Source: an uncultured Chloroflexia bacterium (GTDB taxonomy: Bacteria > Chloroflexota > Anaerolineae > Aggregatilineales > UBA3940). From it: DNA of 64,000 bases. Numbering within the stretch: the first letter of the stretch is position 1; the number at the start of each line of letters is the position of its first letter. Positions 1,143 through 21,069 of this stretch are shown here, piece after piece. Made by a program: the position numbers and the translations under genes. Below the pieces are notes generated by a model. That model made no database searches. It saw only the letters and a list, made by a program, of their open reading frames with translations, and was not told the origin of the DNA. The stretch covers positions 215,706 to 279,705 of the forward strand of contig CAWBCR010000031.1 in NCBI GenBank assembly GCA_963787375.1. Direction: 5' to 3'.

Positions 1143-3868
1143 ATGAACGACCGCCTGCGCCGTGCGGCGCCCGACATCCTGATCATTGCGCTGCTGTTCG
1201 TCGTGCCGCTGATCGTCTTCTTCCCGCAGACGGTCGGCGGGAAGACACTGCTGCCGCTCGACAACTTGTTCCAGTGGCAGCCCTACCGAGCGCTGGCCGC
1301 GCAGGCCGGGGTCGGCCCGGCGCACAACCCGCTGATCTCCGACCTCGTGCTTGAAAACCTGCCGTGGAAGCAGTTCGCCCGCAGTGAGATTCTGTCCGGG
1401 CGCGTGCCGCTGTGGCAGCCCGATATCCTGGCCGGGACGCCCTTCCTGGCCGCCGGGCAGTCGTCGATGCTGTACCCCTTCAGCCTGCTGTTCCTGTTCC
1501 TGCCCATCACGGCGGCCTATGGCTGGTTTACGGTAATCCAGTTGTGGCTGGCGGGCGTGTGGATGTTCGTGCTGATGCGGGTGCTGGGTGTGCGGCGCGG
1601 CGGTGGGCTGATCGCGGCGCTGACCTACCAGTTGAGCGCGTTCTTCGTCGTCAGCGTGGTCTTCCCGATGATCATCGCCACGGCGGCGTGGCTGCCGCTG
1701 GAGATCGCCATGATCGAGCTGGTGATCCGCCAGCAGCCGGCGCTGGGGGGCCGCCCGGCGACGATCCCGTGGGCGGCTGCCGGCGCGGCGGGGCTGGGCA
1801 TGGCGGCGCTGGCCGGGCATGTCGAGGCGCTGTATTTCACGCTGCTGGTGATGGGCTTCTACGCGGCGTGGCGGCTGATCTCAGAAACCCTCATTCCCCA
1901 CGACGTGTCGCGCTGGCGCTGGCTGGCGATCCGCGCGGCGTGGCTGCTGGCGATGGTCGTGGCGGGGCTGGCGCTGGGCGCGGTGCAGATCGTGCCGGCC
2001 TACGAATTGGCGTCGCACAGCTTCCGCCAGGGCGCAGCGACCTACCAGCAGGTGCTGGGCTGGGCTTACCCTGCGCGGCGCGTGCTGGCCTTCCTGATGC
2101 CGAACTTCTTCGGCAGCCCGGCCCATCACAGCTACTTTGACCTGTTCCGCTGGGCGCAGGTGGCGATCACCGCCAACGCGCATGGCGAGGCGATCAGCAG
2201 CACCGAGTGGGGGCTGAAGAACTACGTCGAGGGCGGGGCCTACGTGGGGATTCTGCCGCTGCTGCTGGCGCTGGCGGCGGTGGTCCACTGGATCGGATCG
2301 CGCATCCCCGCCGGGGGCGACCGGCGGGTCGCCCCCGGTCTCGGCGCGGAACAGGCGGGCCGCCCCTACCGCGCAATCTTTGCCGTGCTGGGTGCGCTGT
2401 CGGTGACGTTCATCTTCGGCACGCCGACCTACGCGCTGCTGTACTACGGCCTGCCGTTCATCAACCAGTCGCACGCGCCGTTCCGCTGGGTGTGGCCGCT
2501 GACACTGTGCGTGGCAGCGCTGGCCGGGTTCGGCGTGGAGGCGCTCGCCCCCGCCACCGATGAGACAGCAGGGGCACCGCATGTCGTGCCCCTGCTGCAC
2601 AGGCGGCTGGCGGGCTGGCTGGGCTGGGGCGCGATCATCGGCGGGGCGGCGGTGATTGTGGGCGTCGTCGTGAGCCGCCTCGCCTATGGCGCGCTGAGCG
2701 GGCTGGTGCAGCGCGCCTTCGACGGGCTGGCGCAGGCGTCGTACGCCTTCCCCGACGCGCGCGCGTTCTATTCCTACGAGGCGCTCAACGCGCTGATCTT
2801 CGGCGCGATCCTGCTGGCGGCGGGCGGCGTGATCCGCCTGAGCCGCTCGGCGCGGTCGGTGCGCGGCGTGCCGCTGTGGCAGGCGCTCGGCGCGCTGCTG
2901 GTCGCCGCCGACCTGATAATCGCGACGTGCGGCTTTTACCCCGCCGCCGACCCGGCGCTGCTGGACCTCGTGCCGCCGTCGCTGGCGTGGCTCCGGCAGC
3001 AGCAGGCCGCCGACCCACTCGACCCGTGGCGGCTGGCCGTCTATGAGCAGCCGGGGGCCGATACGCTCAACGCCAACATCGCGTGGCTGAACGGGCTGCA
3101 GGACATCAGCGGCTACGACAGCCTGATCCCGGCGCAGTACGCCGACTACATGCGCCTAATTCAGGAGCAGGGCGACCTGCCCTACAACCGCATCGCGCCG
3201 ATCTACGCCGCGCACGCCGGGGCGCTCGACTCGCCGCTGCTCGACCTGCTGGGCGTGCGCTATGTGATCAGTGAGACGCCGCTCGACAATCCGCGCTACA
3301 TGCCGGTGTACCACGACGGCGCGGTGACAATCTACGAGAACGCGGGCGCAGCGCCGCGCGCCTTCACGCTGCCCGCGTCGAGCACCGTGCGTGGCGCGTT
3401 CGCACAGGCCGCGCTGGCCTACGACGTGCGGCACTACGTGATCATCGACGCGGCGGCCAGCCTGCCGGAACTCGATCCCTGTTCAGCCCGCCGGGTCTGC
3501 CGATCTGCGCAAGGCGGCCATCACCGTCTACGACGCGCCAGCAGGTATGGGTCGACGTGCAGGCCGAGGAGCCGCGCTGGCTGGTGGTCACCGGCAGCGA
3601 TTACCCCGGCTGGCGGGCGTGGGCGCGCCCGCTGGGCGGCGCCGATTCCACCGAGCAGGAAGTGCCGCTGTACCGCGTCGACGGCAATTTCCGGGGCGCG
3701 CTGCTGGAGCCGGGCGCGTGGACGGTGCGCATGAAGTTCAGCCCCGACTCATTCCGCTTCGGCGCGTTCGCGTCGTTCCTGACGGGGCTGGGCATGCTCT
3801 TCGCGCTGGGGGTGTGGGCCTGGCGCTTCTTCTACCGCGAGACGGGCGAGGGGCGCGACATCAGGCGC
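1143..3868 (+). CDS. YfhO-like polytopic membrane glycosyltransferase; two apparent +1 frameshifts near 3480 and 3540, and no stop before the next coding unit
   Basis: GGGAGG RBS before the ATG at 1143. Long multi-TM N-terminal region. The characteristic C-terminal 'VDVQAEEPRWLVVTGSDYPGWRAW..VDGNFRGALLEPG' plus the final TM helix is found only after shifting frame 0 to 1 to 2. Confidence 0.7.
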
Positions 3869-5334
3869 GTGGCCAAGAACACCGTCACGCCGATTGTCCT
3901 CAACCTGTTCAACAAGGGCATCAACTTCGTCCTGACCTTCGCCATGCTGCGCATCCTGGGGCCAACCGGCGCGGGCGACTACCGCTACGCGTTCGTCATT
4001 TACGGCTGGTTCGAGATCCTGTCGAACTTTGGCCTGAACACCTTCCTGATGCGCGAGGTCGCCCGCCACAAAGACGACGCCAACCGCTACCTGGTCAACA
4101 CCACGCTGCTGCGGCTGGCGCTGGTGACGGTCGGCATCCCGGCGCTGGTCGGTTTCATGCTCATCCGCCAGACGTTCATCACGCCGCCGCAGTCGGCGGC
4201 CACGCTGATCACCATCGGCCTGCTGTACGCCGGGCTGTTCTTCTCGACCATCTCGACGGGCCTGACGGCGCTGTTCTACGCCTACGAGAAGGCCGAATAC
4301 CCGGCAGCCATCCAGACCGTCTCGGCCTTCCTGACGACCGCTTTGGGCATCGGCGCGCTGCTGGCCGGCTGGGGGATCGTCGGGCTGGCGGGGGTGAGCG
4401 TGCTGGTCAACGCGGTGACGCTGGCGATCATGGGCGTGCTGGCGCTGCGGCTGTTCTTCAGGCCGCGATTGACGTTCAACTGGCCGCTCCAGCGCGAGGC
4501 GCTGGGCGAGTCGTTCCCGCTGATGATCAACCACCTGCTGGCGACGCTCTTTTTCGCATCGACGTGGTGCTGCTGGAGGCGATCAAGGGCGCGGAGGTGG
4601 TCGGCTGGTACGGGGTGACGTACACCTGGGTCGACGCGATCATGGTCATCCCGTCGTATTTCACGCTGTCGCTGTTCCCGATCATGAGCCGCCAGGCCGT
4701 CGACGACCGCCCGGCGCTGAAGCGCGCCTACGTGCTGGCCGTCAAGCTGATGACGCTGGTCTCCACGCCGACGGCCATCATGACCACGCTGCTCGCGCCG
4801 TTCCTGGTGGGCGTGCTGGGCGGCAAAGCGTTCCTGCCGCACGGCGCAATTGCGATGCAGATCTTCATCTGGTCGATCCTGATTGGCTGGATCAACAGCG
4901 TGACGCAGTATGTCATCATCGCGCTGAACCGGCAGCGCACGCTGACCGTCGCCTTCGTGGTCGTGGCAGCCTTCAACATCGGTGCGAACCTGATCTACAT
5001 CCCGCGCTACTCGTACGTTGCGGCGGCGTTCATCACCATCCTGTCGGAGTTCGTGCTGTGGGGGATGTTCTACACCGTCATCCTGAGCGAGCTGGGCCGC
5101 ATCGACTGGCTGGCGACGCTGTGGCGGGTGGCGCTGGCCGGGGCGCTGTGCGCCGGCACGACGTGGTACCTGGCGCGGGTCAATATGTGGCTGGCGTTTG
5201 TGGCGGGTGGGCTGGTGTACGCCGTCGCGACGCTGGCGCTGCGGCCCTTCAGCGGCGACGAGCTGCGCCAGCTTGCGCCGATTGTGCCGGGCGTGGTGCG
5301 CCGCCGGCTGATGCCGCGCATCGCGGCGGAGTGA
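3869..5334 (+). CDS. MOP/Wzx-type polysaccharide flippase; apparent -1 frameshift near 4555; the GTG start at 3869 is tentative
   Basis: N-terminal half 'VAKNTVTPIVLNLFNKGINFVLTFAMLRILGPTGAGDYRYAF' is in the frame of ORF 3557..4618. The C-terminal half ('VVLLEAIKGAEVVGWYGVTY' to the end) is in the frame of ORF 3547..5334. About 12 or more TM segments. Confidence 0.7.
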
Positions 5335-5340
5335 ATCCGA

Positions 5341-5617
5341 CTACTTCCCGTAGACCTCACGGCGATGCCCGATGATCATCACAATGATAAGACGGCCAGC
5401 GTGATCAACGTCGTAGATTACCCTATAGTCACCTACTCGCAGACGATACAGGCCGCTCCATTCGCCAGTGAGCGGCCTGATGTTGAATAATCGGTGCGTT
5501 CTCCGCCAGCCAGCGGAGCCGCTTGACAATCCGCCGTGCGGTGGCCCTGTCGAGCCGTTTGAGATCGTCCTCTGCCCCTTGGGTCAACTTCAGACTGTAT
5601 TCCAACTCCTCAGTCAT
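5341..5617 (-). CDS. RelE/ParE-family toxin; apparent frameshift near 5480
   Basis: N-terminal 'MTEELEYSLKLTQGAEDDLKRLDRATARRIVKRLRWLAENAP' (ORF 5429..5617) joins C-terminal 'PLTGEWSGLYRLRVGDYRVIYDVDHAGRLIIVMIIGHRREVY' (ORF 5341..5529). Confidence 0.7.
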
Positions 5618-5831
5618 CGAGGCCCATCTCTCGTACGATGTCCTCCAGGGGACGACCTTCCGGCCTCTCGGCCAGATAGGCGCGCAGCCGCGCGGCGACC
5701 TCCGGCGTGAATTCCTTACCAGCGTCCGGGTCTTCCGCCTCGTCGACGATCTCCAGCAGCGCCTCGCGAATCGTCTCGCGGATGAGCGTCTTGAACTCCT
5801 CGATCGTCAAATCAGATACGTGATCAGCCAT
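5610..5831 (-). CDS. putative antitoxin partner of the RelE/ParE toxin
   Basis: ATG at 5831 (MADHVSDLTIEEF..). 73 aa, acidic. Its stop overlaps the toxin start by 8 nt. This is the tail of track ORF 5610..6137. Confidence 0.55.
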   Translation of the reverse strand: MADHVSDLTIEEFKTLIRETIREALLEIVDEAEDPDAGKEFTPEVAARLRAYLAERPEGRPLEDIVREMGLDD

Positions 5832-5898
5832 GTGCTGCAATCCTCGCCCGCTGTTGTGATCGTTGCAGGTATTATACTTCGAACGTAGACCGGCGCGG

Positions 5899-7398
5899 CT
5901 ATGGCTGCAAATCCGCCGGGCTGTAATCGCGGGCGCAGCGCACGCCGGTGGTGTCGTCCTGCGACTCAATCGGGAACCCGCCCCGGTCGGCGGCGCGGCT
6001 GAAGTACGGCGCGTCGTACCACGACCCGCCGCGCACCACGCGCGCCGACGCGTTGGCGTTGGGATCGTTGCGCCCGTCGTCGGGGTTATAGGGATAGTGA
6101 TAGTACACCTCGTCGTAGATGGTCGCCGTCCACTCACCGACGTTGCCCAGCATGTCGAGCGCGCCTACCCACGACGCGCCGCCGGGGTAGCTGCCCACCG
6201 GCGCGCTGAAGCGGTAGCCATCGTTCATCGTCGGGTCGCGCCAGTCGAAGGTGCATGACGCATCGCAGTAGTTGAGCAGCGACCCGACAAAAGTGACGCC
6301 CCACGGATAGTACAGGCTGTCCGGCCCGCGCGCCGCGTACTCCCATTCAGCCTCGGTAGGCAGCCGTGTCCCGCGCTGCTCGCAGGTATCCTTGGCCTCG
6401 GCCCACGTCAGCGAGTCGCGCGGGTGGGTCGAGCCGGGGAACTCGCCCGTCGAACCGGCCAGCGTGTTGGTCACCTCGGTCTGATCGAGCCAGAACGCCT
6501 GCTTGATGCACACCGTGTGCTGCGAGCCCTCATTCTGGAACCAGCTGACCTGGCAGTGGCCCTCCTCGCGGACGGCAACGCAGGCGTCGTAGGCGGCCTG
6601 CCGCTCGGCCAGCGTGCTGCCCATCAGGAAGCAGCCGACCGGCACCAGCACCATGTCGACACCGTCAAAGCTGCGGACGACCGGATCCGGCCAGCCGGCG
6701 TTGCTGTAGACCGGCTCGGAGGGGTCGAGGGGGATCGGCGTGGGCCCGGGCGTGTCGGTCGGGCCGGCGGGCACGATGACCGGCACGCGAGTCGATGTGG
6801 CGGCCCCGGCGGTCGGGCGGGTGGTGGCTGTCGCAGCGGGGGTGGCATCGCCGGGTTTCCTGCCGCCGTACAGGATGGCCAGCACCACTGTCAGCGCCAG
6901 CGCGCCGATGGTCAGCGGCAGCCACAGTGCGGCGATGCTCGGCAGGCGGCGCTTGCGGCGCGGCGCGGGCAGCGCTTGCGACCCATCGCCAGGCGGCGCG
7001 GGCAGCGCGTCGAGCAGCGCAGCCAGCGGCTGGTCGAAGTGCCGGCGAAAGTCAATGTACTGGATGGCGATCAGCTCCGGCGGCAGCTCGACCGTGCGCA
7101 GCATCACCGGGTAGACACGTCCCCGCTTGTGCTGAAGGGCGTACAGCAGCTCGTTGCGCACCCACGTCAATTCAATCAATTCGGGGGTGAGGACCACCAC
7201 GTAGGCGTAGCAGGCGTCGAGCGCCTGCTGGATCTCAAGATTCCACGGCGTGCCCGCGCCGATGCCCTGCACGTCGATCCACACCGTGTGGCCGGCGGCG
7301 GTCAGCGCATCGGCGAGGCGGTGGGCGAAGGCCTTGTCCGGCTCGGTCTGGCGATAGCTGATGAATACGTAGCGAAGGGCACTGGCGCTGTGTGACAT
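5899..7398 (-). CDS. TIR domain - single TM helix - Pro/Thr linker - FGE-sulfatase (SUMF1/C-type-lectin-fold) domain protein
   Basis: ATG at 7398 follows GGAGCGCGGAACC. TIR: 'YVFISYRQTE..TWVRNELLYAL'. TM: 'LPSIAALWLPLTIGALALTVVLAILYGG'. FGE domain: 'RLPTEAEWEYAARG', 'GNVGEWT', 'RVVRGGSW'. Confidence 0.85.
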   Translation of the reverse strand: MSHSASALRYVFISYRQTEPDKAFAHRLADALTAAGHTVWIDVQGIGAGTPWNLEIQQALDACYAYVVVLTPELIELTWVRNELLYALQHKRGRVYPVMLRTVELPPELIAIQYIDFRRHFDQPLAALLDALPAPPGDGSQALPAPRRKRRLPSIAALWLPLTIGALALTVVLAILYGGRKPGDATPAATATTRPTAGAATSTRVPVIVPAGPTDTPGPTPIPLDPSEPVYSNAGWPDPVVRSFDGVDMVLVPVGCFLMGSTLAERQAAYDACVAVREEGHCQVSWFQNEGSQHTVCIKQAFWLDQTEVTNTLAGSTGEFPGSTHPRDSLTWAEAKDTCEQRGTRLPTEAEWEYAARGPDSLYYPWGVTFVGSLLNYCDASCTFDWRDPTMNDGYRFSAPVGSYPGGASWVGALDMLGNVGEWTATIYDEVYYHYPYNPDDGRNDPNANASARVVRGGSWYDAPYFSRAADRGGFPIESQDDTTGVRCARDYSPADLQP

Positions 7399-7563
7399 GG
7401 TTCCGCGCTCCGGATATGAAATCCACGCTAACATCATATCATGAGATGCGGCGGCAGGCGCAACGAGTTCGTGCTGATCCCCTGCCAGAGTTAACCTTGA
7501 TCCCGGCGGCGGGCCTCACTCCCTGTTATCGCAGCCCAGAATCAAGCGCACCCGCATGGCTTA

Positions 7564-7572
7564 TGTTATACT
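7564..7572 (+). promoter_or_regulatory. candidate extended -10 (TGtTATACT) upstream of the STAND gene
   Basis: Read directly in the 248-bp divergent intergenic region. No convincing -35. Confidence 0.25.
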
Positions 7573-7646
7573 GGTGTGCAGCATAGAGACCAGGCTCATG
7601 CCGGCGCGTGATGCGCCCGGCATTATGGGTGAGGACCGGAGAAGAC

Positions 7647-9776
7647 ATGACCGACAACCCGGGCACAGCCAGCGCTGCTCATGATACAGATGAGGTGACC
7701 CCGCCCGAAGAGGACGTGACCTTCAAGCTGGTCAGCGGCCCGCCTGATCCGTCTGTGCCCTACCAGGCCCCTAACCTGCCGCCGTATTTCGTCCCGCGCG
7801 AAGAGCTGATCGCGATCAAGAAGCTGCTGCTGGGCCGCCCGACGGCCTCGCTGGCCCCGCTGACTTTGCACGGCCCGTCGGGCTCTGGCAAGACGGCCAT
7901 CGCCGCCGCCATCGCCCACGATGCCGACGTGCTCAAGAGTTTCCCCGACGGCGTCCTGTGGTACTCGCTGGGCGAAGGCGACGACCCGCAGCACGCCCAG
8001 GCGGTGTGGGCGCTGGCGCTCGGCATCGAGATCAGCCACCTGCCCGATACAACCAGCCGCGCGGCGGCGCTGCGCACCGTCCTGCGCGACCGGCACGCGC
8101 TGCTGGTCATCGACGCTGTGACGGACGTCGAGCAGTTGAAAGCGCTGAACGTCGGCGGGCCGAACTGCGCCCGGCTGATCACCACCGACGCCGTCGACGA
8201 CGTGAGCTACGCCTTCAAGACGCGCCGCTACGCCATCAGCCGCATGCGCGAGGAAGAGGCGCTGAAACTGCTGATCGAGTGGGCCGGCATCCTGCCCGAC
8301 ATCTACCTGCCGACCGTCAAAGAGATCGTGCAGCGGCTGGGATTCTCGCCGCTGGCGCTGGCGTTGGTCGGCGCGCAGGCGCGGCAGGGCATCACCTGGC
8401 TGCGGCTGCTCGAAATGCTGCGCGACGACCAGGGACAACTGTCGGAGGTGGACCCCGACGACGCGGAGATGCGGGGCAAGGCGCTGGGGTTGGTGCTGAA
8501 CGTGGTGCTCTCGCGCTTTGGCGGCGCGCAGCTTCAACGCTCGACGCTGCTGGGCGCGTTCGCCGCCGGGGCGGGCTCGCCGTTCTCGGTCGACGCAGCG
8601 GCGGCCTGCTGGGAATTATCCGCCGTCGAGGCCCGCCGCACGCTGGAGCTGCTGGTCGAGGCGTCGCTGGTGCAGCGCCTGCCGTTCGACCTGTACGCGC
8701 TGCATCCCGCGCTGCGCGACCACCTGCGCCAGGCCGCCGACACCGATGCGCTGCACGCGGCGATCAAGCGCATCCGGCTGCATTACGTGGGGCTCGTCGA
8801 GCGCGACAGCGACGAGACTATCGACCGGCAGCTTGGCCAGTTGATGTTCGTCTACGGCAGCACCTCCGACGGCGACGTCGCCGCCGACAACGTGTTCACC
8901 GACGCGTTGATGAGCTACTTCGAGCGGCGCGGGTTGTGGGCCAACCTGGCGCTGCTGGCTACCGGCGCGGTCGAGGCGGCAGCCGCCGCCAACGACGTGA
9001 TGCGCGAGCACATGTACCTGGGCGACCTGGGCTACGCGCACACCATGCTGGGCCAGCTTCAGGCGGCGCGCGAATGCTTTGAGCGCAGCCTGGCGATCAG
9101 CGAGAAGCTGGGGGACCCCGCCGGCGAAGCGTCGGCGCTGAACAACATCGGCGCGACCCACGAGCGCGAAGGGGCGTACCTGCAGGCGCATACCTATTAT
9201 GAGCGCAGCCTGCGCATCCGCGAGACGCTGGGTGTGCGTGAAGACATCGCCGAGGCGCTGAACAACGTCGCGGGCGTGCTGTACTGGGAAGAGCAGTGGG
9301 ACGAGGCCATCAGCGGCTTCCAACGCGCGCTCGACATGTACACTGTGCTCGGCGACCGGCGCGGGCAGGCGCAGACCTGGCTGAATATCGGCGCGGTGTG
9401 CGAGCGGCTGGGCCGCGACGGCGAGGCTGAGCAGTCATACCAGCGCAGCCTGGCGATCTACGCCAACCTCGGCCAGCCCGACGGCGAGGCGCAGGCCCAC
9501 AACAACCTGGGGATCATCTACTTTAACCAGGGCGACACCGAGCGGGCGCTGGCGTCCTTCAAGCGCAGCCTGGCGCTCAAGGAGAAGCTGGGCGACCGGC
9601 CCGGCGAGGCCTCGACGCTGAACAACATCGCGCTGCTGTACGAGAAGTCCGGCGCGCTGGCGCTGGCGCTGGAGAACTACGAGCGCAGCTTCGAGATCCT
9701 CAACTCGCTCGAAGACCCCCGCGCCGACCTCGTCCAGGAGAACATCGACACACTGCGCGAGGCGATGAAGAAGTAG
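7647..9776 (+). CDS. NB-ARC/STAND ATPase with C-terminal TPR array and no recognisable N-terminal effector domain
   Basis: ATG at 7647 follows GGAGAAGAC. Walker A 'GPSGSGKTA', Walker B 'ALLVIDAV', 'CARLITTD'. At least 8 TPR units of the 'A..Y.RSLAI.E.LGD..GEA..LNNIG' type. Confidence 0.85.
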   Translation: MTDNPGTASAAHDTDEVTPPEEDVTFKLVSGPPDPSVPYQAPNLPPYFVPREELIAIKKLLLGRPTASLAPLTLHGPSGSGKTAIAAAIAHDADVLKSFPDGVLWYSLGEGDDPQHAQAVWALALGIEISHLPDTTSRAAALRTVLRDRHALLVIDAVTDVEQLKALNVGGPNCARLITTDAVDDVSYAFKTRRYAISRMREEEALKLLIEWAGILPDIYLPTVKEIVQRLGFSPLALALVGAQARQGITWLRLLEMLRDDQGQLSEVDPDDAEMRGKALGLVLNVVLSRFGGAQLQRSTLLGAFAAGAGSPFSVDAAAACWELSAVEARRTLELLVEASLVQRLPFDLYALHPALRDHLRQAADTDALHAAIKRIRLHYVGLVERDSDETIDRQLGQLMFVYGSTSDGDVAADNVFTDALMSYFERRGLWANLALLATGAVEAAAAANDVMREHMYLGDLGYAHTMLGQLQAARECFERSLAISEKLGDPAGEASALNNIGATHEREGAYLQAHTYYERSLRIRETLGVREDIAEALNNVAGVLYWEEQWDEAISGFQRALDMYTVLGDRRGQAQTWLNIGAVCERLGRDGEAEQSYQRSLAIYANLGQPDGEAQAHNNLGIIYFNQGDTERALASFKRSLALKEKLGDRPGEASTLNNIALLYEKSGALALALENYERSFEILNSLEDPRADLVQENIDTLREAMKK

Positions 9777-9806: not shown

Positions 9807-9828
9807 GCGCGGCCCACACGGGCCGCGC
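9807..9828 (+). terminator. intrinsic terminator-like hairpin after the STAND gene
   Basis: gcgcggccc-acac-gggccgcgc followed by cttcttgt. Confidence 0.45.
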
Positions 9829-12951: not shown

Positions 12952-13951
12952 ATGAGCCACGGCATCCCCATCAGCCGCCTCCGGGCGGGAACCGCAGATC
13001 GGCGGGGAGCAGTCCGCCGCAACGCACCTCAGCGGCTACGAGCCGCTGCTGGGCGGGATCCGGCGCGCCGGGGCCGACCTCGAACGGGTGCAGGCGCTGC
13101 TCAACGCCGAGAGCGACGCCGAGCGCGAGCGCATCCTCGAATTCGTGACGAACCTGGGGCAGGCGCAGGTGTACGCCGCGGAGCTGGCGCAGGTGGTCCC
13201 GGCGCGGGCGCGGCACCGGGTCGGCAACTGGCGCGGGACGTTCACGCCCGGCCAGCGCATCCGCGCGATTGCGGCGCTGGGGCTGATCGGCAGCTACGAG
13301 TCGGTCGTGCCGCTGGTCGAGACGCTGGCCGACGACATCAGCGGGGTGCGGCTGGCCGCTGCCGAGGCGCTGCGGGCCATCTGCTGCCGCTTCGACCCGG
13401 ACGAGCGCCGCACGCAGATCGCGACCCGCGCGCTGATCGACTCGCTGCGCGTGCTGCCGCTGAGCGGTCGGAAGGTGGTGGCGGGTATCCTGGCCGAGTC
13501 GGAGCCGGAGCTGGTGCTGGGTCCGCTGCTGCAAAACGCGCTCAACGCCGACGAGTGGTGGGCGCGGCGCGAGGCGGCGTGGGTGCTGGGCACGCTCGGT
13601 GACCGGCGGGCGACGCGGCGGCTGGTCGACACGCTGCACGACCCATCGACGGCGGTGCGGGTGTCGGCGGCGTGGGCGCTGGGCCGGCTCGACGCGCCGG
13701 TGGCGGTCGGGCCGCTGCTGGAAACGTCAGAGGATGCGGACGAGGTGGTGCGGGCGGCGGCACTGGAGGCGCTGGGCGCGCAGGCGGCGCGCCTCTCGGC
13801 GCTGGACGCGGGGCTGCGCCCGGCGCTGGACCGCATCACGAACGCGCTCGACGACAGCGACCTCTCGGTGCGGCACGCGGCGGTCGAGGCGCTGGCGGGG
13901 ATCAACACGCTGGAGGCGCGCCGGCGGCTGCAGGATTTTTTGGCGCGGTAG
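12952..13951 (+). CDS. HEAT-repeat (PBS-lyase-type) protein; N-terminus uncertain (ATG 12952 plus one frameshift, or GTG 13088)
   Basis: Repeats 'VRLAAAEALRAI', 'WWARREAAWVLGTLGDRRATRRLVDTLHDPSTAVRVSAAWALGRL', 'VRAAALEALG', 'VRHAAVEALAGI'. The frame of 13088 is open and protein-like back to 12956 but holds no start codon. Confidence 0.7.
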
Positions 13952-13996: not shown

Positions 13997-14356
13997 TTAC
14001 CGGGCCGGGGCGTAGCCGATGCACAGCACAATGGCTGCTGCGATCTCATCCATCTGGTCATCTGTGAGCACGCCTAGCCTGCGCTGAAACCGGTTCAGTG
14101 ACAGCGATTTAACCTGGAACGCATCCGCTGCCGATTCCTTTGCCAGCCCATTCTCTGGCGTGGGGGCCAGATTGACCATCCAGAAATAGCGGGCAAACTG
14201 CGGCTGCCAGCTCGTGATGGGCACCACAATGTGCAGCCGTATCCGCCCCACGCTGTGCGCGGTCATCACGACAGCCGGGCGGATTTTCCGGATCTCATCG
14301 CCCTCGCTCGGATCAAAACGGATTTCCCATACCTCACCCCGGCTGGCGTCAGGCAT
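13997..14356 (-). CDS. MazF/PemK-family toxin (endoribonuclease)
   Basis: ATG at 14356 (MPDASRGEVWEIRFDPSEGDEIRKIRPAVVM..). 8-nt overlap with the upstream small gene. Confidence 0.75.
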   Translation of the reverse strand: MPDASRGEVWEIRFDPSEGDEIRKIRPAVVMTAHSVGRIRLHIVVPITSWQPQFARYFWMVNLAPTPENGLAKESAADAFQVKSLSLNRFQRRLGVLTDDQMDEIAAAIVLCIGYAPAR

Positions 14357-14600
14357 CCAGGTCTTCCTCGCTGTAAGCTTCAAAGACCTCGAAATCCTCA
14401 TCCGCTGCCGCCTCAAAGGCAGCGGTCACCAGGCGTGAACGCTCCTCCGGAGGCAGCCGGAGCAGATCGCGCGCCGTGCGGGCCGGTGTCTGCTGGAGCG
14501 CGGTCACAAAGTCCAGCACCCGGCGCTTCTGGGCCTCGTCCAGCCTATGAAGCTGCTCGACGATCTGTTGCTCAACCGGAACGCTTGCCATCACTGCCAT
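14349..14600 (-). CDS. putative antitoxin of the MazF/PemK toxin
   Basis: 83-aa acidic-tailed protein immediately upstream of, and overlapping, the toxin start. A TATAAT-containing motif lies about 50 nt upstream. Confidence 0.55.
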   Translation of the reverse strand: MAVMASVPVEQQIVEQLHRLDEAQKRRVLDFVTALQQTPARTARDLLRLPPEERSRLVTAAFEAAADEDFEVFEAYSEEDLDA

Positions 14601-14688
14601 CCTTTCACAAATCCATTTCCCTCACCCTGATTTTATCTCGGTTATCATCCCCATTATACGCATAAGTACCGGGTGAGACCGGGGATCG

Positions 14689-16012
14689 CTACCCCTCCGC
14701 GACCGGCTCCACAGGGGCCGGCTGCCGCACGTCGAGCGGGGTGGATGACTCGTCCACCGGCGGGGCGGGCCTCTCGGTGGGGTCGGTGATGAGCCGCACC
14801 TTGCGCTCGAACAGCAGGTAGTCGTAGGCCCAGCTAATCAGCACGACCAGCCGGTTGCGGAAGTCGATCAGCTCGAACAGGTGCAGGCCCAGCCAGGCCA
14901 GCCAGGCCGGGAAGCCGGTGAGGTGCACGCCGAAGACGGTCGCCACGGCTGCGCCGCGCCCGATGACCGACATCGTGCCCCTGTCGAAGTAGCGGAAGGG
15001 CGGCAGCGAGTCCTTACCCTTCTCGCGGGCGAGGATGTGCCGCGCGGCGTAGCGTCCCTGCTGCATGGCGACCGGGGCCATCTGCGGCAGCGGGCGACCA
15101 TCTTGCGCCACGTAGGCCATGTCACCGATGGCGTACACCTCCGGGTGGCCGCCCAGCGTGAGGTCGGGCTCCACGTCGACCTGCCCGCCGTGCTCGCGCG
15201 GCACGTCGAGCGCATCAGACAGCGCCGAGGCGCGCACGCCCGCCGCCCACATCACCATGTAGCTGGGGATCGTTGTGCCGTCGTCGAGCAGGACGCGGTC
15301 CGCTTCGGCGCTGCGGATGCCGTGGCCCAGGATCACGTCGACGCCCATCTTGCGCAGCCGGGCCAGCGCGTAACGCTGGAGCCGGACCGGGAACGCGCCG
15401 AGCAGCCGGTCGAGCTTCTCGACCAGCACGATGCGCGTCTCGTCGAGCGCGATCTCGCGGGTGGTCCTTGACCAGCACGCCGCGCACCAACTCAGCCAGC
15501 GCGCCGACGAACTCGACGCCGGTGGGGCCGCCGCCGGCGATGACGAAGGTCAGCAGCGCGCGGCGCACGTCGGGATCGGCCTCGGTCGAGGCGCGCTCGA
15601 AGGCGCTCAGGATGCGGTTGCGCAGCCGGGCGGCGTCGTCGAGGCCCTTGACGACGTAGCTGTGCCGCTCGACGCTGTCCATGCCGAAGAAGTTGGTGGT
15701 GGCCCCGGCGGCCAGGATCAGGTAATCGTAGCGCAGCGCGCCGGAGTCGGTCTGCACCTCGCGGCGGTCAAAGTCGACGCCGGTGACGCCCGCCATGCGG
15801 AAGGTGACGTTCGGCCAGTGGCGCACGGCGGCGCGCACCGGGTGGGCAATCGACTCCAGCTCGACGCTGGCGGTCGCGACCTGATACAGCAGCGGCTGGA
15901 ACAGGTGGTAGTTGTTGCGGTCGACGAGCCACACGTCGAGGCCCTTGTTGCGCAATTCCCTGGCAGCCCGCAGCCCGCCAAACCCCGCCCCCACGATCAC
16001 CACGCGCTTCAT
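14689..16012 (-). CDS. ndh: type II NADH dehydrogenase (NDH-2); apparent frameshift near 15458
   Basis: AGGAGG before the ATG at 16012. 'VVIVGAGFGGL' and 'VIAGGGPTGVEF' dinucleotide folds are in ORF 15215..16030. The C-terminal half ('GDMAYV..PQMAPVAMQQG') is in ORF 14689..15429. Confidence 0.85.
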
Positions 16013-16148
16013 CGAAGCCTCCTGCAACACTAGAGAAATATTTCACAATCTAGATACATTATATACTAATTAGATGAGATTTGTCAAGATGGAGCGGGGC
16101 AGACATCGCGGGTGTAGGTTGCTGAGTGAGGGATACCAAGAAGGGTAG

Positions 16149-17255
16149 CTAGGGCACCCATGCCATCATAGCCACACTATCGATCTCCATTAATCCTCGC
16201 GTCAAATTGACCAGCGAGTTATCCGCAAGCGACAGAATCCATACGTCCCTGCCGTCTGAAAACGCGATTTCATTGCCATCGGGAGACCAGACAGGACATT
16301 GAAGGATCTCGAGATCGACATTGAACTCCAGCGAAGTAAGCAGCATCAGTTCTGTTGGGGAATACTCCCTGACTACACGTCCTTGAAGGTCGATAATGCG
16401 CAAGGTTCGAACGTAGCTCACTGCATCCAGGTACTCGCCGACTATCTCTTCACTATCCGGTGACCAAGAGAACTTGCCGTCAATCCGGTCGGCAAGTGGA
16501 CGGAAGTTCTCTGCAGAGCAGATGTGAGACTCGGCGCTACAGGTTACGTCCAAGAGGAACAGGGAATCAGAATTCGCGTTCAGCGCAAGGTGCTTCCCAT
16601 CGGGAGACCAATCGACATTCTCAAAACCGGGTTCAACAATCTGCTGTGGATGCCTGAATTCAGGAGGGATGAGAGACTCCGAGACGACACCTGTCTCAAG
16701 ATTCACGACTTCTAGGAACTGCCCATCACGAATATACGCTATGAACTCTCCATCGGGCGACCAACTCGGCGACCGGACAAAATCACCGGCTTCGATAACC
16801 TGGATGACATTGCCAGCTAAATCCAGTATGGCGATGCCTTTTTCGGTCGCAAAGGCGACAAGCCTGTTGATCGGAGAGACCGATGGGTCGTAGTAGTAAG
16901 GTTTTCCTGTGGTGAGCGTTTCAACGCTTGAGCCATCAACACAAATCAGATAGTAACCAAAATCCGTCGTGCCGCCCGTAATCGGCTCACCCCCTACCAG
17001 GATGCGGGTTTGGGTACATGCGTGATATGGCGTAGGCGTCGGGCGAGGGATCTCGGTAGAGGTAGGAGAGGGTTCTGGGGCTGCTGTTACGGTATTGTGG
17101 GTCTCCGTCGGTGTGGGTGACGGGGGATTCGATGTTTCTTCAACACATGCGACCAGATATATCGCCAGCAACAAGGCACTTGCAGAAACCATAGACGCCT
17201 TCAAAATAGCGGATGGTGTGGCTGCGCTTTTGAGTGCTCGAACCCAGTTACCCAT
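16149..17255 (-). CDS. TolB-like beta-propeller (PD40 'WSPDG' repeats) lipoprotein or secreted protein, in a lower-G+C patch
   Basis: Signal or lipobox-like 'SALLLAIYLVAC'. Repeated 'SWSPDGEF', 'DWSPDGKH', 'SWSPDSEE', 'VWSPDGNE'. Confidence 0.65.
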   Translation of the reverse strand: MGNWVRALKSAATPSAILKASMVSASALLLAIYLVACVEETSNPPSPTPTETHNTVTAAPEPSPTSTEIPRPTPTPYHACTQTRILVGGEPITGGTTDFGYYLICVDGSSVETLTTGKPYYYDPSVSPINRLVAFATEKGIAILDLAGNVIQVIEAGDFVRSPSWSPDGEFIAYIRDGQFLEVVNLETGVVSESLIPPEFRHPQQIVEPGFENVDWSPDGKHLALNANSDSLFLLDVTCSAESHICSAENFRPLADRIDGKFSWSPDSEEIVGEYLDAVSYVRTLRIIDLQGRVVREYSPTELMLLTSLEFNVDLEILQCPVWSPDGNEIAFSDGRDVWILSLADNSLVNLTRGLMEIDSVAMMAWVP

Positions 17256-17478
17256 TGCCTGCCCTCTGGAGAATAAGTCGGATATTCTTTGGTTCCGGGA
17301 GGCATCCCCATTATACGCGCAGGTCATGAGTAGGGCCGGGCGCTAGCCCGACGGAACGAGGCGACCCTCAGCGACACGTCAGCATCGCGCGTGTGGGGGC
17401 GGGGGTGAAGGTTTCCTGCTGAAAACGATAACCCCACGACCGGTCGGCCCGCCCAATTCTGCCAGATCGCGCGGCGTC

Positions 17479-20171: not shown

Positions 20172-20325
20172 GATGCTCCCTTAGAATTGGATGACGTGCG
20201 CGGTAACATCATAGCATGGCTGTCGATAGGAGAGAAGAGGCCGCCGGTCCCCCCACCTCACAGGGGTGGCAGCCGCTGCACATGGGTCATACAATAGCAG
20301 CCAACACACACAGGTAAGGATCAGC

Positions 20326-21069
20326 ATGAAGCTCGACATTCCCGGCAAGCCCAGGCCCTACGTGATGGCCCATCGCGGCAACTCTGCCGCCTGCCCTGAA
20401 AACACGTTGGCCGCCTTCCGCCGCGCGCTGGACGACGGCGCGGACCTGATCGAGACCGACCTGCATCTGACGCGCGACGGCGTGTTCGTGTGCATCCACG
20501 ACGGCACCGTCGACCGCACGACCGACGGCACGGGCGCGGTGGCCGACATGACGCTCGACGAGATCAGGCGGCTCAGCGCGAGCTATGGCCGTGCCGCGTT
20601 CGCCGCCGAGCGCATCCCGACGCTGGCCGAGGCGCTGGCGATCATCCCGCCGGATGGCATCCTGGCGCTGGAGCTGAAGACCGACCGCTTCCTTGAGCCG
20701 GAGGTAGGCCACCGGCTTGCCGATGAGCTGGCCGCCGCCGGGATGGCCGCGCGGGTGGTGCTGCTGTCGTTCAACACGGCGCGCGTGCAGGCGACCGCCG
20801 CCGCCGCGCAGGCCGCGGGCCACAACCTCCCGACCGGGTTTATCACCATGAGCCGCCTGATTCCCCGGCGCGGTGTCGACCTGCTGGGGCCGTTCTGGCC
20901 GATCCTGTTCGCCAACCCGTTTTACGTCGCGGCGGCGCACCGGCGCGGGCAGGCCGTGTGTCCGCTCGATCCCACGCCCAACTCGCGGCTGTGGTATTAC
21001 CGCGCGCTCGGCTGCGACGCCGTGCTGACCAACGATCCCGCGGCGACGGTCCACGCGTTGCACCCATGA
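20326..21069 (+). CDS. glycerophosphodiester phosphodiesterase (GDPD family)
   Basis: 'MAHRGNSAACPENTLAAFRRAL..GADLIETDLHLTRDG..IHD'. Confidence 0.8.
   Translation: MKLDIPGKPRPYVMAHRGNSAACPENTLAAFRRALDDGADLIETDLHLTRDGVFVCIHDGTVDRTTDGTGAVADMTLDEIRRLSASYGRAAFAAERIPTLAEALAIIPPDGILALELKTDRFLEPEVGHRLADELAAAGMAARVVLLSFNTARVQATAAAAQAAGHNLPTGFITMSRLIPRRGVDLLGPFWPILFANPFYVAAAHRRGQAVCPLDPTPNSRLWYYRALGCDAVLTNDPAATVHALHP

What the first reader, a model, noticed from the sequence alone, without database searches (positions are those of the whole stretch)
5899..9776. Toll-like-receptor-style TIR-TM-FGE-sulfatase protein divergently paired with an effector-less NB-ARC/TPR STAND ATPase
Seen in the sequence. 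Gene 5899..7398 encodes, in order: an N-terminal TIR domain that keeps the Glu of the 'TWVRNEL' motif; a basic patch plus one hydrophobic helix; a Pro/Thr-rich linker; and a complete FGE-sulfatase (C-type-lectin-fold) domain. The predicted topology is therefore TIR inside and ligand-binding fold outside. 248 bp away on the other strand is a STAND ATPase (Walker A GPSGSGKT, Walker B LLVIDAV, at least 8 TPRs). Its ~70-aa N-terminus has no recognisable effector. Established knowledge. Bacterial TIR domains act as NAD+-consuming or signal-generating effectors in Thoeris and other immune systems. STAND NTPases (Avs-type) are pattern-recognition switches. FGE-sulfatase folds recur as sensor or variable domains in conflict systems. 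Inference. One gene has an effector but no switch and the other has a switch but no effector, so they may form a two-gene module. It could couple an extracytoplasmic signal and/or a cytoplasmic TPR-sensed signal to TIR activity. I know of no experimentally characterised system with this architecture.
Basis: partly seen in the sequence, partly recalled or inferred. Interest (0 to 1): 0.7.

Follow-up and report, generated by a model that had tools for sequence, protein, structure and literature searches.

The report
Membrane TIR receptor beside unrelated STAND ATPase
Both genes are real and built as described, but comparison with related genomes shows they are neighbours by accident: a lone membrane 'sensor outside, TIR inside' gene has been inserted in front of a conserved ATPase switch gene that has its own promoter.

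Summary
Gene A (5899-7398, minus strand, 499 aa) reads N-terminal TIR (Glu83 kept), one transmembrane helix, a Pro/Thr linker, and an FGE-sulfatase (C-type-lectin-fold) domain. Gene B (7647-9776, plus strand, 709 aa) is an NB-ARC plus TPR STAND with no effector domain. They diverge across 248 bp.

The two-gene-module interpretation is not supported.
- Gene B belongs to a tight orthologue group in Anaerolineae (50-73% identity, all about 700-720 aa). Its TPR region is as conserved as its ATPase.
- Every orthologue with enough upstream sequence has the promoter-like motif TTRTGYTATACT upstream (window 7561-7572).
- Of 21 distinct orthologue loci, none has a TIR-FGE gene. One (L095) has a different TIR-TM-Nbr1 gene in the same slot.
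- The closest syntenic relatives (L093, L094) run straight from the YfhO/flippase gene to the STAND.
- Five TIR-TM-FGE homologue neighbourhoods, including the closest homologue, have no STAND.

Gene A is therefore an accessory, stand-alone member of a widespread but uncharacterised TIR-TM-FGE family. Its FGE domain lacks the catalytic cysteine pair, so it is probably an extracytoplasmic ligand-binding module driving a cytoplasmic TIR NADase. That mechanism is inferred, not shown.

The parts
5899..7398 (-). Gene A: TIR-TM-Pro/Thr linker-FGE-sulfatase protein, 499 aa (identical to database protein P0001)
   Evidence: Aligns full-length and colinear with 24 homologues.
7003..7371 (-). TIR domain (residues 10-132). 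The catalytic-type Glu83 codon is at 7150-7152.
   Evidence: Pfam TIR_2, E 4.5e-26. AlphaFold2 pLDDT is about 80-94. Foldseek matches the SARM1, SPARTA and AbTir TIR domains with target TM-scores of 0.7-0.78. E83 is invariant in the family and aligns with the Glu of 3h16 and 7uxr.
6865..6936 (-). Single transmembrane helix (residues about 155-178), preceded by the basic patch RRKRR
   Evidence: Kyte-Doolittle maximum 2.37 at 158-176. AlphaFold2 helix at 159-177.
6694..6864 (-). Pro/Thr/Ala-rich disordered stalk (residues 179-235)
   Evidence: Composition. pLDDT below 50 for 178-218. Least conserved region of the family, column identity 0.49.
5923..6693 (-). FGE-sulfatase / C-type-lectin-fold domain (residues 236-492). 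It is predicted to be extracytoplasmic and non-catalytic.
   Evidence: Pfam and NCBIfam hits. The best solved relatives are SUMF2/pFGE, CalU17 and PorK. There is no Cys between RGGSW (457-461) and RC (487-488), where FGE has its Cys pair. It contains 8 Cys, 6 of them conserved. The same linker plus domain occurs in a lipoprotein at 21158-22117.
7399..7646 (.). 248-bp divergent spacer
7561..7572 (+). Conserved promoter-like element TTATGTTATACT (extended -10: TG-n-TATACT), 75 nt upstream of the STAND ATG, with a conserved CAAGCG about 18 nt upstream (7543-7548)
   Evidence: Invariant block in the 7-locus alignment A3. The strict motif lies just upstream of the STAND gene in 17 of the 20 loci scanned, window included (in L085 and L091 further out, 257 and about 560 nt from the start coordinate I assumed). 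It has only 20 hits in 4.44 Mb, both strands, of all fetched loci.
7647..9776 (+). Gene B: NB-ARC-TPR STAND ATPase without effector domain, 709 aa (identical to P0121). It belongs to a conserved Anaerolineae orthologue group.
   Evidence: AlphaFold2 mean pLDDT 88.9. Foldseek top hits are the STAND-TPR protein 6mfv, Apaf-1 and the LGN TPR domain.
7872..7895 (+). Walker A, GPSGSGKT (residues 76-83)
   Evidence: G76, G79, G81, K82 and T83 are invariant in the orthologues.
8100..8120 (+). Walker B, LLVIDAV (residues 152-158). D156 is invariant; the second acidic position is Ala here.
8967..9773 (+). TPR region (residues 441-709): 7 forty-residue repeats plus a capping helix
   Evidence: Pfam TPR_12. 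120-nt DNA periodicity (family D1). Model helices 411-708. Column identity 0.73, equal to the NOD.
9807..9828 (+). Terminator-like GC-rich hairpin just after the STAND stop codon
   Evidence: This is a consensus match only.
1143..5334 (+). Flank, not part of the pair: YfhO-like plus polysaccharide-flippase gene. It is syntenic with the STAND in L092-L095. In the window it is spread over three reading frames.

Best explanation
These are two independent genes that are adjacent by insertion, not a module. Gene B is a vertically inherited, core NB-ARC-TPR STAND of Anaerolineae. It is monocistronic and driven by its own conserved extended -10 promoter. It sits in a partly conserved chromosomal context: YfhO/flippase fusion gene, then a variable slot, then the STAND, then an alpha/beta hydrolase further downstream. 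It has no effector domain in any orthologue, and its TPR region is as constrained as its ATPase. It is therefore most likely a housekeeping regulatory switch or scaffold that binds a conserved cellular partner, not a diversifying immune sensor. Gene A is an accessory gene inserted into the variable slot between the flippase gene and the STAND promoter. It belongs to a widespread family of type-II single-pass membrane proteins: N-terminal cytoplasmic TIR, TM helix, Pro/Thr stalk, extracytoplasmic non-catalytic FGE/C-type-lectin-fold domain. These proteins occur as solitary genes among unrelated housekeeping genes. The inferred mechanism is as follows. The ectodomain binds a conserved envelope or extracellular ligand, possibly a glycan. 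Ligand-driven clustering in the membrane brings the TIR domains together. The clustered TIRs assemble a composite NAD+-cleaving active site that uses Glu83. The result is NAD+ depletion or a nucleotide signal, leading to growth arrest or death of the affected cell in the filament. Shown here: the domains, the predicted topology, the conserved Glu, the lack of FGE catalytic cysteines, the solitary genomic context, and the independence of the STAND. Inferred: the ligand, clustering as the activation step, NADase activity, and the physiological output.
For: (1) STAND orthology. About 60 cluster representatives share 50-73% identity and all are about 700-720 aa with no extra domains. Column identity is 0.73 for the NOD and 0.73 for the TPR region.
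(2) Neighbourhoods of 21 distinct STAND-orthologue loci, 16 of them with at least 1.6 kb upstream. None has a TIR-FGE gene. The immediate upstream genes vary: SDR, M42 peptidase, glyoxalase, DUF4013, kinase-PD40 and unknowns.
(3) Synteny. The YfhO/flippase gene and the alpha/beta hydrolase flank the STAND in L092-L095. In L093 and L094 only 360-420 bp separate the flippase gene from the STAND, with no TIR gene.
(4) Conserved promoter-like motif. TTRTGYTATACT lies upstream of the STAND gene in 17 of the 20 loci scanned, whatever the upstream gene is (in L085 and L091 further out, 257 and about 560 nt from the start coordinate I assumed). It has 20 hits in 4.44 Mb in total.
(5) Five TIR-TM-FGE homologue neighbourhoods have no NB-ARC, NACHT or STAND gene within 8-10 kb. 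This includes the closest homologue, P0013 (55% identity over the TIR, 51% over the FGE domain).
(6) Gene A has no database relative above about 55% identity, while the flanking genes have 57-77% relatives. That fits an accessory gene.
(7) TIR and FGE genes are not enriched near the STAND: 3 hits in 121 kb within 4 kb, against 1 hit in 95 kb further away.
(8) Topology and enzymology clues come. A lipoprotein paralogue carries the same linker plus FGE module.
(9) No defence genes flank the pair.
Against: L095 (STAND 58% identical) carries a different TIR-TM-ectodomain gene (N_BRCA1_IG ectodomain) in the same flippase-STAND slot, also transcribed away from the STAND. TIR genes are otherwise rare in the fetched DNA: 2 in 1.7 Mb of unrelated loci. 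A second TIR-TM gene in this slot is therefore mildly surprising; my rough estimate is p of about 0.04-0.2. Receptor-type genes also lie upstream of the STAND in three other loci. These are caspase-FGE in L083 and kinase-LysM-FGE in L173, each 1.4-1.5 kb upstream, and kinase-PD40 in L091, whose gene ends about 0.7 kb upstream. Distant paralogues fuse TIR directly to NB-ARC-TPR (L104), so TIR-STAND cooperation is possible in principle. No experiment or expression data is available, and functional links do not require conserved adjacency.
Confidence: 0.75

Rival explanations
1. TIR-TM-FGE and the effector-less STAND form a two-gene module in which the STAND gates or amplifies TIR activity, or the TIR protein supplies the effector that the STAND lacks.
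For: The genes diverge across 248 bp. The domain sets are complementary. L095 also has a TIR-TM-ectodomain gene transcribed away from its STAND orthologue. TIR-NB-ARC-TPR fusions exist among distant paralogues. Lectin-TIR genes next to AP-ATPase-TPR genes have been predicted as conflict systems in actinobacteria (PMC8195603).
Against: None of 21 STAND-orthologue loci has a TIR-FGE gene and none of 5 TIR-FGE loci has a STAND. The closest syntenic relatives lack the TIR gene. The STAND promoter-like motif is conserved whatever the neighbour. The STAND N-terminus has no adaptor or effector-associated domain. The TPR region shows no diversification. The window TIR and the L095 TIR are only 33% identical and belong to different subclades, and a DUF4013 gene lies between the L095 TIR gene and its STAND.
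Confidence: 0.08
2. The slot upstream of the STAND is an insertion hotspot, or is functionally tied to the envelope-polysaccharide YfhO/flippase gene. It recurrently collects membrane receptor genes such as TIR-TM-FGE and TIR-TM-Nbr1. Any association is with the envelope locus or the hotspot, not with the STAND.
For: The five syntenic loci hold different slot contents: nothing or a small ORF (L093, L094), DUF4013 (L092), TIR-TM-N_BRCA1_IG plus DUF4013 (L095), and TIR-TM-FGE (window). Both TIR genes converge on the flippase gene.
Against: Only two cases exist, and the window is ascertainment-biased. No mobile-element signature or flanking repeat was found around 5899-7398, and GC content matches the flanks. 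Other TIR-FGE homologues are not next to YfhO or flippase genes.
Confidence: 0.1
3. Gene A is not an NADase sensor. Either the FGE domain is an enzyme (formylglycine generation or EgtB/PvdO-type chemistry) anchored by a TIR used only as a protein-interaction scaffold, or the TIR is catalytically dead.
For: Databases name family members 'SUMF1/EgtB/PvdO family nonheme iron enzyme'. There are weak NCBIfam hits to PvdO, EgtB and SenA. Many TIR domains act as scaffolds.
Against: All NCBIfam scores are far below the curated cut-offs: 65 against 500 for PvdO and 47 against 360 for EgtB. The FGE cysteine pair is absent and the best solved relative is the inactive paralogue SUMF2. There is no DinB domain as in EgtB. 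The TIR keeps the catalytic-type Glu and most resembles enzymatic TIRs structurally (SARM1, SPARTA, AbTir).
Confidence: 0.07

Closest known systems
Predicted lectin-fold (FGS/NPCBM) conflict systems of multicellular bacteria (Kaur, Burroughs, Iyer, Aravind: eLife 2020, PMC7159879; eLife 2021, PMC8195603)
   Same: An FGE-sulfatase (FGS) C-type-lectin-fold domain serves as the proposed sensor and is fused C-terminally to effector or signalling domains including TIR. These systems are enriched in filamentous or multicellular phyla, including Chloroflexi. Some lectin-TIR genes are reported next to AP-ATPase-TPR genes.
   Different: Those systems are predicted to be intracellular, NTPase-coupled (STAND fusion or MoxR-vWA ternary), often linked by effector-associated domains, and often diversified by DGRs. 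Here the FGE domain lies beyond a TM helix, no effector-associated domain or DGR template repeat is present, and the STAND neighbour is not conserved.
Metacaspase-FGE-sulfatase and Ser/Thr-kinase-TM-FGE-sulfatase proteins (PMC3501461; examples in L083 and L173)
   Same: They follow the same syntax, with an intracellular signalling or effector domain N-terminal and the FGE domain C-terminal. Their FGE domains are close relatives: P0114 is kinase-FGE and P0117 is caspase-FGE among the top hits.
   Different: The output domain is TIR rather than a caspase or kinase. None of these families has been characterised experimentally.
Animal Toll-like receptors
   Same: An ectodomain, one TM helix and a cytoplasmic TIR, with activation by ligand-induced approximation of TIR domains.
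   Different: The orientation is reversed (type II, with the TIR at the N-terminus). The ectodomain is an FGE/C-type-lectin fold, not LRR. The TIR keeps the catalytic Glu typical of NADase TIRs and is structurally nearer SARM1, SPARTA and AbTir. The resemblance is convergent architecture, not family membership.
Avs and other defence-associated bacterial STAND NTPases (PMC13581612)
   Same: A STAND NTPase core with a C-terminal TPR sensor.
   Different: There is no N-terminal effector, no PADLOC Avs hit, no defence-island context and no sensor diversification. [quoted passage not shown]
Solved STAND-TPR protein 6mfv, and the NB-ARC-TPR module of AfsR/SARP regulators
   Same: 6mfv is the best full-length structural match (query TM-score 0.58). 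The NCBIfam AfsR model aligns over residues 37-368.
   Different: There is no DNA-binding or other output domain. Sequence identity to 6mfv is only 13%.
SUMF2 (pFGE), the non-catalytic paralogue of formylglycine-generating enzyme
   Same: It is the best solved sequence relative of the ectodomain (1y4j, E 7.8e-16). Both lack the catalytic Cys pair.
   Different: SUMF2 is a soluble ER-lumen protein with no TM helix and no TIR.

Membership tests
TIR-TM-FGE-sulfatase protein family (uncharacterised, mainly Chloroflexota) | Colinear N-terminal TIR_2, single TM helix, low-complexity stalk and C-terminal FGE-sulfatase domain, about 490-600 aa | tested here: met
   37 other cluster representatives with TIR_2 plus FGE-sulfatase are among the top 119 hits. 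The 25-sequence full-length alignment has 54% mean column identity. The architecture also occurs in Competibacteraceae (L015) and Methylococcaceae (L037).
Enzymatic (NADase-type) TIR domains | TIR fold | tested here: met
   Pfam TIR_2, 92 bits. pLDDT about 80-94. Foldseek matches SARM1, SPARTA and AbTir.
Enzymatic (NADase-type) TIR domains | Conserved catalytic Glu in the W/F-x-x-x-E motif | tested here: met
   E83 is invariant in 25 sequences and aligns with the Glu of 3h16 and 7uxr.
Enzymatic (NADase-type) TIR domains | NAD+ cleavage activity | not testable with these tools
   This needs a biochemical assay of the wild type against E83A.
Thoeris (ThsA + ThsB) | ThsB-type TIR protein scoring above the family cut-off | tested here: not met
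   NCBIfam ThcB4 scores 48 bits against a cut-off of 220. PADLOC ThsB hits cover only part of the TIR domain.
Thoeris (ThsA + ThsB) | Adjacent ThsA effector (SIR2 or Macro-SLOG) | tested here: not met
   The neighbours are the YfhO/flippase gene, the STAND, unknowns, a hydrolase and a HEAT protein. PADLOC returns no hits for them except sub-threshold HEAT-repeat matches for 13088-13951, and no ThsA-type model.
Avs / defence-associated STAND | STAND NTPase plus C-terminal repeat sensor | tested here: met
   NB-ARC and TPR. Model and Foldseek matches.
Avs / defence-associated STAND | N-terminal effector domain or effector-associated adaptor domain | tested here: not met
   No domain lies before residue 51. 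Residues 1-22 are disordered. All orthologues have the same length.
Avs / defence-associated STAND | Defence-island context, a defence-model hit, or a diversifying sensor | tested here: not met
   PADLOC gives only a generic TPR hit. The flanks are housekeeping genes. The TPR region is as conserved as the NOD.
Formylglycine-generating enzyme (FGE/SUMF1) | FGE-sulfatase fold | tested here: met
Formylglycine-generating enzyme (FGE/SUMF1) | Catalytic Cys pair in the C-terminal segment between the GGS motif and the final RC motif. The position of the pair is taken from my own knowledge of FGE. | tested here: not met
   There is no Cys in residues 457-487. The best solved relative is the inactive paralogue SUMF2.
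DGR variable protein (C-type-lectin-fold target) | A template repeat matching the C-terminal variable region, with a reverse transcriptase nearby | tested here: not met
   No template-like repeat of 5899-6200 occurs anywhere in the 64-kb window. A reverse transcriptase was not searched for specifically, and one elsewhere in the genome cannot be excluded.
Toll-like receptor | Ectodomain, single TM helix, cytoplasmic TIR | tested here: met
   This is a predicted topology only. It is supported by the lipoprotein paralogue and the conserved cysteines.
Toll-like receptor | LRR ectodomain and type-I orientation with a C-terminal TIR | tested here: not met
   The ectodomain is an FGE fold and the TIR is N-terminal.
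Conserved Anaerolineae NB-ARC-TPR orthologue group | Full-length 50-73% identity, about 700-720 aa, the conserved N-terminal peptide F-x-x-V-x-G-P...PYQAPDLPPYFVPR, and the upstream TTRTGYTATACT motif | tested here: met

The most novel reading that the evidence does not exclude
TIR-TM-ectodomain receptors such as TIR-TM-FGE (window) and TIR-TM-Nbr1 (L095) are recruited repeatedly next to this conserved effector-less STAND because they signal to it. That would be a bacterial outside-in cascade from a surface 'Toll-like' receptor to a cytoplasmic NLR-like switch. A more probable and less radical reading (about 0.35) is that TIR-TM-FGE proteins alone are genuine transmembrane receptors. In that reading an extracellular lectin-fold domain controls a cytoplasmic TIR NADase, which has not been shown experimentally for any bacterial TIR protein I could find.
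Probability: 0.07. Interest if true: 0.75.

Novelty: new member of a known kind. Interest (0 to 1): 0.3.

Why it matters
The proposed new two-gene immune module is not real, so it should not be carried forward as a defence-system candidate. Two leads remain.

First, TIR-TM-FGE is a sizeable, untested family. If its ectodomain really controls a cytoplasmic TIR NADase, these proteins would be the first bacterial TIR proteins that sense something outside the cell. That bears on how filamentous bacteria handle damage or infection.

Second, the STAND is an example of a core, non-diversifying, effector-less NB-ARC-TPR protein with a strikingly conserved promoter element. It is a reminder that many bacterial STANDs are probably not immune receptors.

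Tried and rejected
- **Genome-contig scan with the TIR-FGE alignment.** The patterns came from the FGE domain, so 78 of 80 loci were FGE-only proteins from many phyla. I used them only as background for TIR and FGE gene density.
- **Exact-contig look-up of P0001.** Not on record, so the source contig could not be read beyond the window.
- **Homologue search with the TIR plus TM region alone.** Only 4 hits, because of word-index sensitivity. It could not enumerate which ectodomains are attached to this TIR clade.
- **DGR hypothesis.** No template repeat for the FGE C-terminus in the window. Rejected for this locus.
- **Rfam scan of the window.** No RNA family. No riboswitch explains the conserved spacer element.
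- **Defence-island hypothesis.** PADLOC gave nothing above noise for the eight flanking genes tested: seven had no hit and the HEAT-repeat protein had only weak partial matches.
- **FGE as an enzyme.** Rejected because the Cys pair is missing and the NCBIfam scores are far below cut-off.
- **Enrichment of TIR and FGE genes near the STAND.** 3 hits near against 1 far. Not significant.
- **Window ORF 3547-5334 as an intact flippase.** Its first 335 residues turned out to be an off-frame translation. The true frame is 3557-4618.

Full report
**1. Observation**

Gene A (5899-7398, minus strand, 499 aa):
- It starts at MSHSASALRYVFISY.
- Pfam finds TIR_2 at residues 11-129 (E 4.5e-26) and FGE-sulfatase at 319-490 (E 1.2e-37).
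- The NCBIfam PvdO model aligns over 247-491, so the whole FGE fold is present.

Gene B (7647-9776, plus strand, 709 aa):
- It starts at MTDNPG.
- It has NB-ARC at 71-247 and TPR models over 440-700.
- Walker A GPSGSGKT is at 76-83 and Walker B LLVIDAV at 152-158.

The spacer is 248 bp. Both proteins exist with identical sequence in public collections, on a 290,678-bp contig.

**2. Anatomy of gene A**

- **Transmembrane segment.** One hydrophobic segment at about 155-178 has a Kyte-Doolittle mean of 2.37. The basic patch RRKRR precedes it and a Pro/Thr/Ala-rich stretch follows.
- **AlphaFold2 model, built on a 25-sequence alignment.** It gives a confident TIR domain (pLDDT about 80-94), a helix at 159-177, a disordered stalk at 178-218, and a moderately confident C-terminal domain.
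- **Structural matches for the TIR.** Foldseek places it nearest to enzymatic TIRs: SARM1, SPARTA TIR-APAZ and AbTir, with target TM-scores of 0.7-0.78.
- **Catalytic-type Glu.** Glu83 in W79-V-R-N-E83-L is invariant in the family. It aligns with the W..xEL Glu of the bacterial TIR proteins 3h16 and 7uxr.
- **The FGE domain is probably not an enzyme.**
  - Its best solved relatives are the inactive paralogue SUMF2/pFGE, CalU17 and the T9SS lipoprotein PorK.
  - There is no cysteine between RGGSW (457-461) and RC (487-488). That is where formylglycine-generating enzymes have their catalytic Cys pair; this position comes from my own knowledge of FGE.
  - NCBIfam scores for PvdO, EgtB and SenA are far below the curated cut-offs.
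- **Evidence for an extracytoplasmic location of the FGE domain.**
  - The positive-inside rule.
  - Eight cysteines in the ectodomain, six of them conserved.
  - A second gene in the window (21158-22117) that attaches the same Pro/Thr linker plus FGE module to a lipoprotein signal peptide.

So 'TIR inside, lectin fold outside' is the best-supported topology. It remains a prediction.

**3. Gene A belongs to a common family**

- Among the top 119 database hits, 37 other cluster representatives combine TIR_2 with FGE-sulfatase.
- About 25 of them align end to end at 37-45% identity.
- The same FGE module is also attached to Ser/Thr kinases, caspases, lectins and PD40 domains.
- TIR-FGE proteins also occur in Competibacteraceae (L015) and Methylococcaceae (L037).
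- Column identity in the family is 0.81 for the TIR, 0.49 for the TM helix and stalk, and 0.71 for the FGE domain. The ectodomain is therefore conserved, not hypervariable.
- No DGR-type template repeat exists in the window.
- The closest relative of the window protein is P0013, at 55% identity over the TIR and 51% over the FGE domain.

**4. Anatomy and family of gene B**

AlphaFold2 gives a high-confidence model (mean pLDDT 88.9, pTM 0.79):
- residues 1-22 are disordered;
- residues 23-50 form a conserved extended peptide;
- an NB-ARC NOD follows;
- seven 40-residue TPR pairs plus a capping helix cover 411-708.

There is no room for an effector or adaptor domain. Foldseek's best full-length match is the solved STAND-TPR protein 6mfv, followed by Apaf-1 and CED-4 for the NOD and LGN for the TPR region.

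The NOD query returned about 60 cluster representatives of 50-73% identity. All are about 700-720 aa with the same domain content, and those that carry a source name come from Anaerolineae or Chloroflexi bacteria. In a 25-sequence alignment the TPR region is exactly as conserved as the NOD (0.73 each). That is the signature of a vertically inherited protein with a conserved partner. It is not what an arms-race sensor looks like.

**5. Test of the module hypothesis from the STAND side**

I collected 21 distinct orthologue loci, 16 of them with at least 1.6 kb upstream (de-duplicated). I scanned them with tblastn and with HMMs built from the TIR, FGE and NOD alignments.
- None contains a TIR-FGE gene.
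- The genes immediately upstream differ from locus to locus: unknowns, a 4HBT thioesterase, an SDR, an M42 peptidase, a glyoxalase, DUF4013 and a kinase-PD40 protein.

There is real synteny, and it excludes gene A:
- In L092-L095 a single YfhO-like/flippase fusion gene precedes the STAND, and an alpha/beta hydrolase lies downstream, as in the window.
- In L093 and L094 the flanking genes are 61-77% identical to the window's and the STAND is 65-67% identical. There the STAND follows the flippase gene after only 360-420 bp.
- Gene A is therefore an insertion into this slot.

**6. The STAND has its own conserved promoter-like element**

- Aligning the upstream regions of seven loci revealed an invariant block, CTTATGYTATACT, with a conserved CCAAGCG about 20 nt further upstream.
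- The pattern TTRTGYTATACT is an extended -10 (TG-n-TATACT).
- I scanned 20 loci, window included. It lies just upstream of the STAND gene in 17 of them.
  - In most it is 50-135 nt from the start coordinate I used, which is approximate where the match did not begin at residue 1.
  - In L085 and L091 it is further out, 257 and about 560 nt from that coordinate.
- L088 and L090 have the looser TGTTATACT at -79 and -78.
- L098 has too little upstream sequence to judge.
- In the window it lies at 7561-7572, 75 nt before the ATG.
- A terminator-like hairpin follows the stop codon, and the downstream genes are not conserved.

The STAND is thus an autonomous, monocistronic unit whatever lies upstream.

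**7. Test from the TIR-FGE side**

Five independent homologue neighbourhoods were read: P0054, P0052, P0042, P0047 and the closest homologue P0013.
- None has an NB-ARC, NACHT or AAA_16 gene within 8-10 kb.
- The genes sit singly among housekeeping genes such as a PBP, LysM proteins, ABC permeases and the his operon.
- P0013 has a second TIR gene beside it.

**8. What remains in favour of a link**

- L095 (STAND 58% identical) carries a TIR-TM-N_BRCA1_IG gene plus a DUF4013 gene in the same slot, transcribed away from the STAND.
- Its TIR is only 33% identical to the window's and belongs to another subclade, closest to P0062. This looks like an independent acquisition.
- TIR genes are rare in the fetched DNA: 2 in 1.7 Mb of unrelated loci, and none elsewhere in the 216 kb of STAND-orthologue flanks. 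The coincidence is therefore mildly surprising. My rough estimate is p of about 0.04-0.2, after discounting the window itself as ascertained.
- Receptor-type genes lie upstream of the STAND in three more loci. Caspase-FGE in L083 and kinase-LysM-FGE in L173 are 1.4-1.5 kb upstream, and a kinase-PD40 gene in L091 ends about 0.7 kb upstream. Such genes are very frequent in these genomes. TIR and FGE hits are not significantly enriched near the STAND: 3 in 121 kb against 1 in 95 kb.
- A distant paralogue (L104, 28% identity) fuses TIR directly to NB-ARC-TPR. TIR-STAND cooperation exists in the wider superfamily, but by fusion.

I put the module reading at about 0.08 and a 'variable slot or hotspot' reading at about 0.1.

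**9. Most likely function**

Gene A is most likely a stand-alone, type-II membrane receptor-effector. The inferred steps are these:
1. The non-catalytic lectin-fold ectodomain binds a conserved extracytoplasmic ligand. An envelope glycan or damage product is plausible, given LysM-FGE fusions such as the one in L173.
2. Clustering brings the TIR domains together, as all characterised enzymatic TIRs require.
3. The TIR domains cleave NAD+ using Glu83.

All three steps are inferred. Only the parts list and the predicted topology are shown.

Gene B is most likely a housekeeping STAND switch or scaffold with an unknown, conserved partner.

**10. Relation to what is known**

- FGE/FGS lectin-fold domains fused behind TIR, caspase and kinase domains have been described computationally. 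So have lectin-TIR genes near AP-ATPase-TPR genes in multicellular bacteria (PMC7159879, PMC8195603, PMC10907252, PMC3501461).
- FGE-type sensors also occur on STANDs (PMC13581612). [quoted passage not shown]
- I found no experimental study of a bacterial TIR protein with an extracellular sensor.
- The locus fails the membership tests for Thoeris, Avs, FGE enzymes, DGR targets and true TLRs.
- It passes the tests for the TIR-TM-FGE family and for the conserved Anaerolineae STAND orthologue group.

**11. Verdict**

The module interpretation is not supported. Both genes are new members of known, though uncharacterised or only computationally described, kinds. Interest is modest at 0.3. The residual value lies in the untested TIR-TM-FGE family and in the unusually conserved STAND promoter element.

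**12. Caveat on sequence quality**

The YfhO/flippase gene is one continuous ORF in four relatives, but in the window it is spread over three frames. The NDH-2 gene at 14689-16030 is also split. The contig may therefore carry indel errors. Genes A and B are intact and align full-length with their homologues.

Noticed in passing
window 1143-5334 (+): The YfhO-like plus polysaccharide-flippase gene is one continuous ORF of about 1,420-1,470 aa in L092-L095. In the window it is spread over three frames: 1143 to about 3500, 3557 to about 4555, and about 4550 to 5334. That means two frameshifts, from either pseudogenisation or assembly indels. The first 335 residues of ORF 3547-5334 are an off-frame translation.
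   Followed up: partly
window 14689-16030 (-): A type-II NADH dehydrogenase (Pyr_redox_2 plus NDH2_C) is split into two overlapping ORFs, 15215-16030 and 14689-15429. This is a third apparent frameshift within 16 kb.
   Followed up: no
window 7540-7572 (+); the same position in the other STAND-orthologue loci (L081-L099 and L173-L175, where upstream sequence is available): The 12-nt element TTRTGYTATACT, with a conserved CCAAGCG about 20 nt upstream, lies in front of nearly every STAND orthologue despite only 50-73% protein identity. It is almost absent elsewhere (20 hits in 4.4 Mb). This is more conserved than an ordinary -10 box, so a dedicated regulator site is possible.
   Followed up: partly
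L095 7868-9720 (-): In a distant syntenic relative, the slot between the flippase gene and the STAND holds a TIR-TM-N_BRCA1_IG (Nbr1 FW-like) gene plus a DUF4013 membrane protein. L092 has only the DUF4013 gene there.
   Followed up: partly
window 21158-22117 (+): A lipoprotein (signal peptide with a Cys lipobox) carries the same Pro/Thr/Ala linker and a 40%-identical FGE-sulfatase domain. It follows a GDPD phosphodiesterase gene (20266-21069) and a membrane adenylate/guanylate cyclase gene (18948-20171, minus strand).
   Followed up: partly
window 8112-8117 (STAND residues 156-157); alignment A2: The second acidic residue of Walker B is not conserved among the orthologues (DD, DE, DG, DN; DA in the window), while the first Asp is invariant. 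ATP hydrolysis may be slow or dispensable in this STAND group.
   Followed up: no
L104 373-3147 (+); L015 9119-10729 (+); L037 566-10258: L104 encodes a TIR-NB-ARC-TPR fusion that is 28% identical to the STAND. L015 (Competibacteraceae) encodes a TIR-FGE protein. L037 (Methylococcaceae) has a tandem array of TIR and FGE genes.
   Followed up: no
window 5523-5888 (+): A small ORF (121 aa, no Pfam hit) has weak homologues directly upstream of the STAND in L093 and L099 (38% identity over 75 aa, E about 2e-6). Gene A is inserted between this ORF and the STAND promoter. Whether it is coding is uncertain.
   Followed up: no
window 13997-14416 (-) and 16000-17300: A PemK/MazF-type toxin gene lies about 4 kb downstream of the STAND. 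There is a low-GC stretch (0.51 against about 0.68) at 16.0-17.3 kb, and a 38-nt imperfect repeat occurs at 14646-14683 and 17303-17340. This may be a small inserted element.
   Followed up: no
L170 11876-12733 (-): The closest homologue of gene A (P0013) has a second, 285-aa TIR-domain gene converging on it. A portal-like gene (SPP1_portal, faint hit) lies about 8.5 kb downstream of P0013.
   Followed up: no
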